4,506 nucleotides of DNA from a virus (Duplodnaviria > Heunggongvirae > Uroviricota > Caudoviricetes), in IMG/VR virus record IMGVR_UViG_3300028985_000039, one strand, 5' to 3'. A program made the position numbers. Shown here in pieces: positions 1-3,000 of the stretch; position 1 is the first letter of the stretch; the number at the start of each line of letters is the position of its first letter.

Positions 1-3000
1 CAGAAGCAGAAAAAGCTTATTATTCTTCCATCGGAAACGATGATCTGGCAGCCTGAGTTCACAGATAAAACACTCTCCAGGAAACCCGGGGCGGTTCATT
101 GAAAACTTTGAAGAGTAAAGGTGTAAATTCACTCAGTGATTTTTATGCTATTGACTTAACCAGTAAAAATGGACGAGAGTTATGCCGTACACTTGCCTAT
201 AAAACATTCGAAAAAATCATAATTAATACGGATAATAAAACCTGTGATATCTATTTTATGAATGGCATTGTTTTTAAACACTATCCTTTAATGAAAGTAA
301 TATCCGCCCAGCAGGCGATAAGTGCTCTCAAATATATGGTTGATGGTGAGATTTATTTCTAAATAATGATCTCGGATTTTAAGTTATGCTATGGTGATAA
401 AGTGCAAGACAGAATTAATTATCTTTGACGAAACTTAATGGGTAATTACTTTGTTTGCTCCCACAAGCGAGTTTTGTACGGCTGTATTGGGGTAGTAAAT
501 GAGCTATACAATCTTAATCATTTGTTAGGTGAGAACTCTTGGTCGCAGATTCAAATACTGAAAATACGTGACAAATTATTATGAGCAAAATGGTGTATGT
601 CACGTATTTTGAATGATAGGTTAAAAAATAACACCGACTTTCGTAGGTATTACTAATAATAAAGCAGAGTTTTTAGATAGTATCAATGTGCTTTGTGTAT
701 ATTGTGGCAAATAATTGGGTTGGGGGTACAATTGTGATTGCTTTTGCATAAAAATTGCGCCTTTATGCATAATGAGATAAAGGAATATCAAATAAAATAA
801 CGATAGGTCATAACAAAGAGGTTTTTATGAAAACACTTATCGTTTCAACTGTATTGGCATTCATAACATTTTCTGCGCAGGCTGCAGCATTTCAGGTCAC
901 TAGTAATGAAATAAAAACAGGAGAGCAACTTACAACGTCTCATGTCTTTTCTGGATTTGGGTGTGAAGGTGGTAATACATCGCCCTCATTAACCTGGTCT
1001 GGTGTTCCTGAAGGTACCAAAAGCTTTGCCGTAACTGTATATGATCCAGATGCACTTACAGGCAGTGGTTGGTGGCATTGGACTGTTGTTAATATTCCAG
1101 CAACAATAACATATTTGCCCGTTGATGCAGGGAGACGTGATGGAACAAAACTGCCGACTGGTGCTGTTCAAGGCCGAAATGATTTTGGCTATGCTGGGTT
1201 TGGTGGCGCATGTCCTCCTAAAGGAGATAAACCACATCATTACCAGTTTAAAGTATGGGCTCTAAAAACTGAAAAGATTCCTGTAGATTCTAACTCCAGC
1301 GGAGCGTTAGTTGGTTATATGCTTAATGCTAATAAAATCGCAACCGCTGAGATAACACCAGTTTATGAGATAAAGTAGGGTGAGAGTATGCTGGCAAGAG
1401 GTAAGACTAACTTAAAGATCGAAGAAATACGGATGCATAAACATCATGAGATTCATAGGGTTAAGCCTCTTATGCCAGCTTTGTGTCGTATCCGTCAGGG
1501 AAAGAAAGTTATCAATTGGGAGACGCATACTTTAACTGTTGATAATAATCAAATAATATTATTTCCTTGTGGTTATGAATTTTATATTGAGAATTATCCT
1601 GAAGCAGGGCTTTATCTTGCAGAAATGCTTTACTTACCCATTGATTTAATTGAGAGTTTCCAAAAACTTTATACGGTAACTGATCAAATACGTAACAAAA
1701 CAAGTTTCTTTTTACCTCAGAATCCTGAGTTAATATATTGTTGGGAGCAACTAAAAACATCTGTTTCCCGAGGCTTCTCAACTAAAATTCAGGAGCACTT
1801 AGCAATGGGCGTTCTACTTTCGTTAGGAGTGAATCATGTTAATCATTTACTTTTATCATATAGTAAACAATCATTGATAAGTCGTTGTTATAACCTGCTG
1901 CTATCCGAACCCGGCACAAAATGGACAGCAAACAAGGTTGCTCGATATCTCTACATTTCTGTTTCTACATTACATCGCCGTCTAGCAAGCGAGGGGGTAA
2001 GTTTCCAAAGTATACTGGACGATGTGAGGTTAAATAATGCGTTGTCTGCTATACAAACGACGGTAAAACCTATAAGCGAGATTGCCAGAGAAAATGGTTA
2101 TAAGTGTCCTTCTCGTTTTACTGAAAGATTTCATAATCGTTTTAATATAACACCAAGAGAGATAAGAAAAGCTTCCAGAGAGTAAAAGTGTTTTAAGAAG
2201 GAGCAATTCTATCGATTTTGATTTTGGGAAATCAACACGGCATAATTATGTCACCGGAGCCTGAACAACTCCGGTGACTTCTGCGCTAAACGGGGACGTT
2301 TATGCGCACATACAATCCAAACTCTCTTCTCCCTTCACAGATGCAGAAATGCACCTGCAATTCTTTGCATCTAGCGTTTGACCTCTGCGGAGGTGAAGCG
2401 TGAACCTCTCACAAGACGGCATCAAATTACATCGCGGCAACTTCACCGCTATCGGTCGGCAGATCCAGCCTTATCTGGAGGAGGGCAAATGCTTTCGCAT
2501 GGTGCTTAAACCGTGGCGTGAGAAACGCAGTCTTTCCCAGAATGCACTCAGCCACATGTGGTACAGCGAAATCAGTGAATACCTCATCAGCAGGGGTAAA
2601 ACGTTCGCCACTCCAGCTTGGGTAAAAGATGCTCTCAAACACACATATCTCGGTTATGAAACCAAAGACCTGGTTGATGTCGTAACCGGTGATATCACCA
2701 CTATCCAGTCGTTATGCCATACCTCCGATCTTGATACCGGAGAGATGTATGTCTTCCTGTGTAAGGTTGAAGCCTGGGCGGTGAATATTGGCTGCCACCT
2801 GACTATTCCGCAGAGCTGCGAGTTCCAGCTGCTCCGCGACAAGCAGGAGGCGTAATGGCTACACCGCTTATTCGTGTCATGAACGGACACATCTACAGAG
2901 TATCAAATCGTCGTAAGCGTAAGCCTGAGCTGAAGCCATCCGAAATACCAACACTGCTCGGATATACCGCTAGCCTGGTTGATAAAAAATGGTTGCGACT

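What the first reader, a model, noticed from the sequence alone, without database searches (positions are those of the whole stretch)
561..610. Perfect 13-bp inverted repeat with 24-bp spacer in the ybcL leader
AAAATACGTGACA (561-573) and TGTCACGTATTTT (598-610) are exact reverse complements, which is unlikely by chance in a 464-bp region. The geometry (A4-stem-loop-stem-T4) looks like a bidirectional terminator, but the 24-nt loop and AU-rich stem are atypical. It could instead be a two-half-site operator for a dimeric regulator (YbcM is the obvious local candidate) or a recombinase-related site.
Basis: seen in the sequence. Interest (0 to 1): 0.4.

Follow-up and report, generated by a model that had tools for sequence, protein, structure and literature searches.

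The report
Orphan hairpin palindrome between ybcK and ybcL
A perfect 13-bp inverted repeat really exists between the recombinase gene ybcK and ybcL in a DLP12-type E. coli prophage, but published maps put the YbcM binding site and the ybcL transcript start elsewhere, so it is most likely a weak terminator-like hairpin or a functionless relic.

Summary
AAAATACGTGACA (561-573) and TGTCACGTATTTT (598-610) are exact reverse complements 24 bp apart. Only 1 of 2000 shuffles of the 464-bp spacer gives an arm this long. A random E. coli-sized genome still yields about four such repeats by chance.

Most of the interpretation does not hold.
- The repeat is not in the ybcL leader. The mapped + strand start is at window 805.
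- It is not the YbcM site. The published ChIP-exo peak maps to 726-759.
- It lies in an orphan segment of about 240 bp (about 433-670), found only where the ybcK module abuts ybcLM (about 675 genomes, all at least 95% identical).
- Roughly 2250 genomes carry ybcLM without the segment, and roughly 700 carry ybcK without it.
- A classical terminator score is negative on both strands, and a published Term-seq set lists no 3' end there.
- No copy split at the repeat exists, so there is no sign it was used for recombination.
- The repeat never varies, but neither does most of the spacer, so conservation says nothing.

My best guess is a weak, leaky terminator-like hairpin after ybcK (0.35), only slightly ahead of a functionless relic (0.30). 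A binding site for the YbcK serine recombinase or another protein is not excluded (about 0.2). Interest is low.

The parts
561..573 (.). Left arm of the inverted repeat, AAAATACGTGACA
   Evidence: Exact reverse complement of 598-610.
574..597 (.). 24-nt spacer, AATTATTATGAGCAAAATGGTGTA. It has no dyad symmetry (3 of 12 positions, by my hand comparison of the two halves). On + strand RNA it adds a weak 6-pair inner helix with three G-U pairs.
   Evidence: Sequence; folds.
598..610 (.). Right arm of the inverted repeat, TGTCACGTATTTT
433..670 (.). Orphan mosaic segment 'X' that holds the repeat (approximate bounds). It is present only where the ybcK module meets ybcLM. No diverged copy was found anywhere.
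   Evidence: The left bound comes from aligning this arrangement with ybcK-only prophages. The right bound comes from aligning it with chromosomal emrE-ybcLM. Distribution.
1..362 (+). 3' end of ybcK, a large serine recombinase gene. Its stop codon lies 199 bp before the repeat.
   Evidence: Annotation. Pfam Resolvase + Recombinase + Zn_ribbon_recom. The YxRxSS catalytic motif is intact.
575..603 (-). Promoter-like match on the minus strand inside the repeat: GTGACA, 17 nt, AATAAT (10 of 12). It is the best such match in the first kilobase.
   Evidence: No start-site data for this strand could be read, because the stored file is cut.
726..759 (.). Published YbcM ChIP-exo footprint upstream of ybcLM. 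This is the real YbcM site and it does not overlap the repeat.
   Evidence: Gao et al. 2021, PMC8464067, dataset: 570015-570048, S/N 357. The coordinates were shown to be NC_000913.2 and converted.
793..805 (+). Likely ybcL promoter -10 (TAAAAT, 793-798) and the mapped transcription start at about 805
   Evidence: Cappable-seq TSS at U00096.2 570094, converted. The -10 hexamer is my reading of the sequence.
827..2185 (+). ybcL (827-1378) and ybcM (1388-2185), the downstream moron operon
1686..1699 (+). AAATACGTAACAAA inside ybcM, a 13-of-14 copy of the left arm plus one base. Its significance is unclear.
   Evidence: family D15. 0.7% of shuffles give such a match, but the choice of motif was post hoc.

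Best explanation
The repeat is a hairpin-forming palindrome in an orphan spacer of about 240 bp. That spacer joins the emrE-ylcJ-ybcK module to the ybcLM moron in the nin region of DLP12-type lambdoid prophages. If it has a function, the most likely one is at the RNA level. It would act as a weak, leaky factor-independent terminator or insulator (A4, 9-bp stem, T4). It would trim rightward read-through from ybcK and the phage early-right operon before the separately controlled, YbcM-bound ybcLM promoter, and could do the same for leftward antisense transcripts. This is the role lambda's nin-region terminators play (from general knowledge). What is shown: the sequence, its local improbability, the RNA fold, its position relative to the mapped YbcM site and ybcL start site, and its restricted distribution. 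What is inferred: that it terminates transcription at all.
For: The outer four bases of the perfect arms are A4 and T4, so a T run follows the stem on both strands. The hairpin is the dominant fold in 62-nt and 101-nt contexts: -18.7 kcal/mol with z = -5.3 on +, and -14.9 with z = -5.5 on -. It lies 199 bp after the ybcK stop and about 195 bp before the ybcL start site. That places it between two transcription units, outside both the ybcL leader and the YbcM footprint. TTTTGAAT after the stem has 5 T in 8, which meets the T-run part of the scan rule. By my own reading of the sequence fetched, ybcK-only prophages carry a different weak hairpin followed by TTTT at a similar distance after ybcK. 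This was not scored.
Against: The loop is 24 nt, where terminators usually have 3-8. Only 4 of the 9 stem pairs are G-C, and only four U follow before G. The d'Aubenton-Carafa-type score (formula recalled from memory, energies computed) is -27 on + and -31 on -, where terminators score above 0. The terminator scan did not list it and Rfam has no match there. Curated Term-seq 3' ends for MG1655 in three conditions include none in 570,500-570,899. That negative is weak, because ybcK transcription is stopped by Rho near its 5' end (PMC4150792). About 700 ybcK-bearing and about 2250 ybcLM-bearing genomes lack the repeat, so neither unit needs it. There is no covariation. All 44 copies are identical in the repeat, but with 17 variable sites in 464 bp, zero hits in 50 bp has p of about 0.16.
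Confidence: 0.35

Rival explanations
1. It is a functionless relic. The palindrome arose by chance or by a mutational process such as template switching in AT-rich, horizontally acquired DNA. It persists only because the whole segment is young and nearly clonal.
For: A random genome of E. coli size gives about 4 such repeats, and AT-rich DNA gives 1.2 per Mb. The host segment is an orphan with no diverged relatives. Every copy is at least 95% identical, so invariance carries no weight. Both flanking gene modules exist widely without it. No experimental signal maps to it. The 48-codon ORF that ends in its loop has no homologues outside its own cluster.
Against: Locally it is a 1-in-2000 event. 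The A4/T4 ends give it a terminator-like shape that a chance repeat need not have. A near-copy of the arm occurs inside ybcM (0.7% of shuffles, post hoc).
Confidence: 0.3
2. It is a binding or recombination site for the neighbouring large serine recombinase YbcK. The site would be attP-like: 50 bp, with each 13-bp outer arm bound by one subunit's zinc-ribbon domain and crossover near the centre (G585/C586).
For: YbcK has all three large-serine-recombinase domains and an intact catalytic motif. The repeat lies 199 bp after its stop codon. The total span of 50 bp, with near-perfect outer arms and a less symmetric centre, resembles known attP sites such as those of A118, Bxb1 and phiC31 (recalled from the literature, not tested here). 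Relatives at 50-56% identity sit at prophage ends in Yersinia and Erwinia, where they probably act as integrases.
Against: About half of the ybcK-bearing genomes (96-97% identical gene) lack the segment. No copy of the segment split at the repeat exists in 5426 genomes, so no attL/attR-like products were seen. No second matching site occurs in an intact 48.7-kb phage. The inner 24 bp are only 3 of 12 symmetric. Downstream regions of homologues at 50-60% identity show no comparable repeat of similar geometry. These phages integrate with a tyrosine integrase.
Confidence: 0.12
3. It is an operator for another, unidentified dimeric or tetrameric DNA-binding protein, with two TACGTGACA half-sites 33 bp apart centre to centre.
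For: The dyad is perfect. The arms overlap the -35 and the start region of a 10-of-12 promoter-like match on the minus strand. A third near-copy lies in ybcM. In metagenomes the same 9-mer builds palindromic sites such as TACGTGACA-N3-TGTCACGTA in unrelated contigs, so it can serve as a half-site. The 24-nt spacer equals 3 nt plus 21, which is two helical turns.
Against: There is no candidate protein and no gene downstream of the minus-strand promoter-like site. The metagenome matches were selected by the search pattern itself, and none resembles the E. coli locus outside the 9-mer. A 24-bp gap between half-sites is unusual for a simple dimer.
Confidence: 0.1
4. It houses a sigma-70 promoter for a leftward antisense RNA opposite the 3' end of ybcK. 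In that case the dyad symmetry would be incidental.
For: GTGACA, 17 nt, AATAAT on the minus strand (603 to 575) is the best match in the first kilobase. A terminator-like hairpin on the minus strand at 318-304 could end a transcript of about 260 nt.
Against: The count of promoter-like matches equals the shuffle expectation (5 found against 4.3). No start-site evidence could be read for the minus strand. This reading does not explain the perfect symmetry.
Confidence: 0.08
5. It is a YbcM operator.
For: YbcM is encoded nearby and autoregulates ybcLM (PMC8464067).
Against: The only YbcM ChIP-exo peak in this region is at window 726-759 with S/N 357. No second peak is listed at the repeat. The footprint sequence shares nothing obvious with the arms. 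In chromosomal emrE-ybcLM loci the footprint region is conserved while the repeat is absent.
Confidence: 0.03

Closest known systems
Intrinsic (Rho-independent) bidirectional terminators of E. coli
   Same: An A run, a stem-loop and a T run, so a hairpin followed by U forms on both strands. It lies between transcription units.
   Different: The loop is 24 nt, the stem is only 44% G-C, and the U run is 4 long. The classical discriminant score is negative, and no mapped 3' end is known.
Terminators of the lambda nin region (tR2-tR4), between P/ren and Q
   Same: It occupies the same genomic neighbourhood, between ren and ninB/Q of a lambdoid phage. It would have the same logical role of limiting early-right read-through unless antitermination is active.
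   Different: There is no sequence relationship. The host segment is an orphan insert absent from most lambdoid prophages, and no termination has been shown.
attP sites of large serine recombinases (A118/LI, Bxb1, phiC31)
   Same: The span is about 50 bp, the outer arms are strongly symmetric and the centre is asymmetric, and it lies next to a large serine recombinase gene.
   Different: The inner half-site region shows almost no symmetry. The site does not travel with ybcK. No recombination products were found, and the recombinase-site relationship is untested.
AraC-family operator of YbcM upstream of ybcLM
   Same: It lies in the same intergenic spacer.
   Different: The mapped YbcM site is at 726-759, adjacent to the ybcL promoter. 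The repeat is 116 bp further upstream and is absent from most ybcLM loci.

Membership tests
Intrinsic terminator | G+C-rich stem with a short loop (about 3-8 nt) | tested here: not met
   The stem is 9 bp with 4 G-C pairs, or 13 bp counting A-U pairs. The loop is 24 nt. It is not listed by the terminator scan.
Intrinsic terminator | U-rich tract directly after the stem | tested here: inconclusive
   UUUUGAAU on + and UUUUCAGU on -. There are 4 consecutive U and 5 of 8 on +. The T term is 3.3-3.4, compared with well above 4 expected for a run of seven U.
Intrinsic terminator | Positive hairpin/U-tract discriminant score | tested here: not met
   d = -27 on + and -31 on -. The formula was recalled from d'Aubenton-Carafa 1990 and the energies came from ViennaRNA.
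Intrinsic terminator | Transcript 3' ends at the U tract in vivo | tested here: inconclusive
   No 3' end at 570,500-570,899 in Adams et al. 2021 supplementary files 1-3. However, ybcK is barely transcribed, because a Rho termination region lies at 568,940.
YbcM (AraC-family) operator | YbcM occupancy in vivo | tested here: not met
   The ChIP-exo peak at 570015-570048 (NC_000913.2) equals window 726-759. No peak is listed at 561-610.
YbcM (AraC-family) operator | Travels with the ybcLM promoter region | tested here: not met
   Chromosomal emrE-ybcLM loci (about 2250 genomes) keep 727-826 at 93% identity but lack the repeat.
ybcL 5' leader element | Lies between the transcription start and the start codon | tested here: not met
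   The + strand Cappable-seq start is at window 805, and none lies between U00096.2 568538 and 570094. A genomic-SELEX paper proposes a constitutive promoter whose hexamers occur at 704-732.
Large serine recombinase att site | A 40-55 bp site with imperfect dyad symmetry about a central dinucleotide | tested here: inconclusive
   The length is 50 bp and the outer 13 bp are perfect, but the inner 12 + 12 bp match at only 3 of 12 positions (hand comparison).
Large serine recombinase att site | Linked to its recombinase gene across genomes | tested here: not met
   ybcK at 96-97% identity occurs without the segment in O157:H7, 55989 and roughly 700 genomes.
Large serine recombinase att site | Recombination products (split half-sites) exist | tested here: not met
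   All 675 matches to window 425-700 in 5426 genomes are full length. All flank-anchored viral contigs that reach the repeat have it intact.
Large serine recombinase att site | Bound or cut by the recombinase | not testable with these tools
   This needs purified YbcK, or ChIP.
Known RNA family (Rfam 15) | A covariance-model match | tested here: not met
   The only match at E of 1 or less in the window is at 4359-4402, not at the repeat.
Dispersed repeat, MITE or IS end | Multiple copies per genome | tested here: not met
   One place per genome in all 675 genomes. No other arm copies with 2 or fewer mismatches in repeat configuration in a 48.7-kb phage.

The most novel reading that the evidence does not exclude
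The 50-bp palindrome is an intact attP-like site for the YbcK large serine recombinase. DLP12-type lambdoid phages would then carry a second, serine-recombinase integration or rearrangement module (gene plus site) inside the nin region, alongside their tyrosine integrase.
Probability: 0.1. Interest if true: 0.55.

Novelty: new member of a known kind. Interest (0 to 1): 0.15.

Why it matters
If the hairpin does terminate transcription, it would be one more insulator separating a moron (ybcLM) from upstream phage and recombinase transcription. That would be useful for annotating DLP12 but not surprising. The more useful outcome here is negative. The YbcM operator and the ybcL start site are already mapped elsewhere, so this repeat should not be annotated as a ybcL leader or a YbcM site. 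Only the minority reading would be of wider interest: a cognate site for the uncharacterised YbcK serine recombinase, an enzyme with no known substrate.

Tried and rejected
- **Conservation or covariation of the arms.** All copies are identical. I checked 675 E. coli genomes, 3 phages, 46 IMG/VR contigs and 7 metagenome contigs. The whole spacer is near-clonal, so this is uninformative.
- **Diverged copies of the host segment.** None were found by distant blastn in E. coli, phages or plasmids, or by pattern scans of viral and metagenome contigs.
- **The 48-codon ORF (438-584) ending in the loop.** It has no Pfam match and no homologue beyond its own cluster, so I rejected it as a gene.
- **Rfam.** There is no match at the repeat.
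- **YbcM operator.** Rejected on the ChIP-exo coordinates.
- **PhoB and sigma-54 sites mentioned near ybcK.** They lie at other coordinates, inside ybcK and emrE respectively.
- **A comparable repeat next to YbcK homologues.** I looked in Atlantibacter, Yersinia, Erwinia, Citrobacter and one metagenomic contig. Nothing had similar geometry or sequence.
- **A second arm-like site elsewhere in an intact phage.** None was significant.
- **YbcK against PDB sequences.** No hit at E of 0.001 or less.
- **Minus-strand start-site data.** The Cappable-seq file is cut before the minus strand, and Thomason 2015, Dar & Sorek 2018 and the Nanopore paper supplements are not held.
- **Recalled consensus sites.** Matches to integron attC, dif, CRP, Fur, LexA, the mar box and the ARG box were considered from memory and did not fit. 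They were not formally scanned.

Full report
**Where the window comes from.** The window is the nin region of a DLP12-type lambdoid prophage of E. coli. It holds the 3' end of ybcK (to 362), a 464-bp spacer (363-826), ybcL (827-1378) and ybcM (1388-2185). After these come ylcH, ybcN, ninE, ybcO, rusA, ylcG and quuD, and an IS1 end begins near 4433. The spacer is 100% identical to strain AR_0013 and 99.1% identical to K-12 MG1655.

**The observation.** Positions 561-573 (AAAATACGTGACA) and 598-610 (TGTCACGTATTTT) are exact reverse complements separated by 24 nt. This is the longest perfect short-range inverted repeat in the window. Only 1 of 2000 dinucleotide-preserving shuffles of the spacer reached 13 bp. 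Simulated random sequence gives about 4 such repeats per 4.6 Mb, and 1.2 per Mb at 32% GC. The repeat is therefore locally improbable, but a genome-wide scan would be expected to turn up a few like it. As RNA it folds into the expected hairpin on both strands: -18.7 kcal/mol (z = -5.3) on + and -14.9 (z = -5.5) on -. Those z-scores simply restate that the repeat is perfect.

**Position relative to mapped features.** Three published data sets place the ybcL regulatory elements to the right of the repeat.
- Gao et al. 2021 (PMC8464067) report one very strong YbcM ChIP-exo peak upstream of ybcLM, at 570015-570048 with S/N 357. Their csrB peak fits the older NC_000913.2 numbering and not version .3. 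A sigma-54 motif inside emrE gives an offset of 777 bp between the two versions. The YbcM footprint is therefore window 726-759, 116 bp to the right of the repeat.
- Cappable-seq (PMC4782308) lists no + strand start between U00096.2 568538 and 570094, and 570094 equals window 805. That is 22 nt before the ybcL ATG, with TAAAAT at 793-798.
- Genomic SELEX (PMC3946193) proposes a constitutive promoter in the ybcK-ybcL spacer, GTGGCA-17-TACAAT, and flags H-NS binding there. Those hexamers occur at window 704-732.

The repeat is therefore neither in the ybcL leader nor the YbcM site.

**Mosaic context.** E. coli complete genomes show three arrangements.
- Type A (671 genomes, plus three intact phages) is emrE-ylcJ-ybcK-X-ybcL-ybcM, as in this window.
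- Type B (O157:H7, 55989 and others, roughly 700 genomes at 96-97% identity) has emrE-ylcJ-ybcK followed by unrelated DNA. Homology to type A fades about 70 bp after the ybcK stop, near window 433.
- Type C (roughly 2250 genomes at about 91% identity) is a chromosomal emrE-ybcL-ybcM islet without ylcJ-ybcK. Homology to type A resumes near window 670 and is 93% from 727 onwards, which includes the YbcM footprint.

The repeat therefore sits in a segment X of about 240 bp (about 433-670) that exists only at the ybcK/ybcLM junction. X is single-copy and at least 95% identical in all 675 genomes that have it. It has no diverged relative in E. coli, phage or plasmid records, or in the viral and metagenome contigs scanned by exact pattern. 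The 48-codon ORF that ends in the loop has no family and no homologue. Neither ybcK nor ybcLM needs the repeat.

**Conservation.** Among 44 copies (11 haplotypes) the spacer has 17 variable sites, and none falls in the 50 bp of the repeat. The chance of that is about 0.16, so the test has no power.

**Terminator reading.** The shape fits: A4, stem, T4, lying between two transcription units. The details are poor. The loop is 24 nt, 4 of the 9 stem pairs are G-C, and four U are followed by G. A d'Aubenton-Carafa-type score is -27 on + and -31 on -, where terminators score above 0. I recalled that formula from memory. The control hairpin coordinates in that call were badly chosen, so I do not use those control values. 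The pattern scan did not list the repeat and Rfam has no match there. Curated Term-seq 3' ends from MG1655 in three conditions contain none in the spacer. That negative is weak, because ybcK transcription is ended by Rho near its 5' end and the region is reported as H-NS-bound.

**Recombinase-site reading.** YbcK is an apparently intact large serine recombinase. It has the Resolvase, Recombinase and zinc-ribbon domains and the YMRFSS motif. Relatives at 50-56% identity lie at prophage ends in Yersinia and Erwinia. A 50-bp site with strong outer symmetry beside the gene resembles an attP site (recalled knowledge, not tested here). Several findings argue against this reading:
- Half of the ybcK-bearing genomes lack X.
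- No copy of X split at the repeat exists.
- An intact phage has no second matching site.
- The inner 24 bp are asymmetric.
- The homologues examined show no comparable repeat.

**Other protein-binding readings.** The repeat overlaps the best promoter-like match in the first kilobase, on the minus strand, but no gene lies downstream of it. A 13-of-14 copy of the arm lies inside ybcM. Metagenomes contain unrelated palindromic sites built from the same 9-mer, but those matches were selected by the search pattern itself.

**Verdict.** The repeat is real and locally improbable. It lies in an orphan mosaic spacer, and published maps place the YbcM binding site and the ybcL leader elsewhere. I rank a weak, leaky terminator-like hairpin first (0.35), just ahead of a functionless relic (0.30). 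A site for YbcK or another protein (0.22 together), a minus-strand promoter (0.08) and a YbcM operator (0.03) follow. Nothing here is surprising for a phage mosaic junction, so interest is low.

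Noticed in passing
window 1-2185, with L001, L003, L010, L011: The emrE / ylcJ-ybcK / ybcLM genes occur in three arrangements in E. coli. All together (DLP12 type): 671 genomes. emrE-ylcJ-ybcK without ybcLM: O157:H7, 55989 and others. A chromosomal emrE-ybcLM islet near fliE without ybcK: roughly 2250 genomes at about 91% identity. The 2.1-kb ylcJ-ybcK-X block is bounded by short AATAAT repeats (my reading of the junction sequences).
   Followed up: partly
window 726-805: The published YbcM ChIP-exo footprint (726-759) sits 46-79 bp upstream of the mapped ybcL start site (805), which is typical placement for an AraC-family regulator. Two common polymorphisms (750 A/G, 753 A/C) fall inside the footprint. 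In this window, TGCATAA occurs twice, 21 bp apart (746-752 and 767-773, my count).
   Followed up: partly
window 1686-1699: AAATACGTAACAAA inside the ybcM coding sequence matches the left arm plus one base at 13 of 14 positions. Only 0.7% of shuffles give such a match, but the motif was chosen after the fact.
   Followed up: partly
window 4374-4400: A canonical hairpin (CCAGCC...GGCTGG) followed by T7 lies about 100 bp after quuD (antiterminator Q). It is probably the late-promoter tR'-type terminator. It gives a sub-threshold Rfam match to an unrelated sRNA family (28.6 bits against a gathering score of 50).
   Followed up: no
window 4433-4506: An IS1-family end begins here. The matching genomes annotate an IS1 family transposase, and only 23 genomes share the whole junction.
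   Followed up: partly
window 4009-4018: A run of 10 N interrupts the quuD reading frame. It looks like masked or unresolved sequence.
   Followed up: no
window 2250-2277: A G+C-rich 10-bp hairpin (GTCACCGGAG...CTCCGGTGAC) lies just before ylcH/ybcN and is kept in prophages that lack ybcLM. It is followed by TTCTGCGC, a poor T tract. It may mark the start of the conserved nin block.
   Followed up: no
L001 2247-2272 (just after emrE, outside the window): A 12-bp near-perfect hairpin (GAGGCTCTTATA TT TATATGAGCCTC) followed by a T-rich tract overlaps the ylcJ start codon. It looks like the emrE terminator.
   Followed up: no
L084-L090 (homologues of YbcK): YbcK-like large serine recombinases (41-61% identity) form an Enterobacterales family. 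In Yersinia enterocolitica the gene sits at the edge of a P2-like prophage next to a host autotransporter. In Erwinia it sits between tail genes and lepA. In Citrobacter koseri it sits next to a Shufflon_N-domain protein. These contexts suggest integrase or invertase roles.
   Followed up: partly
L099, L117, L121, L162, L112, L092 and other metagenome loci: Unrelated environmental contigs carry families of palindromic sites built on TACGTGACA/TGTCACGTA. One family is arrays of TTGTCACGTAWTACGTGACAA spaced about 46 bp apart. Another is long inverted repeats GATCGGGCGCTACGTGACA-N22-25-TGTCACGTAGCGCCCGATC with variable centres.
   Followed up: no
window 827-1378: YbcL in this window differs from K-12 YbcL at P77L and V94I.
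   Followed up: no
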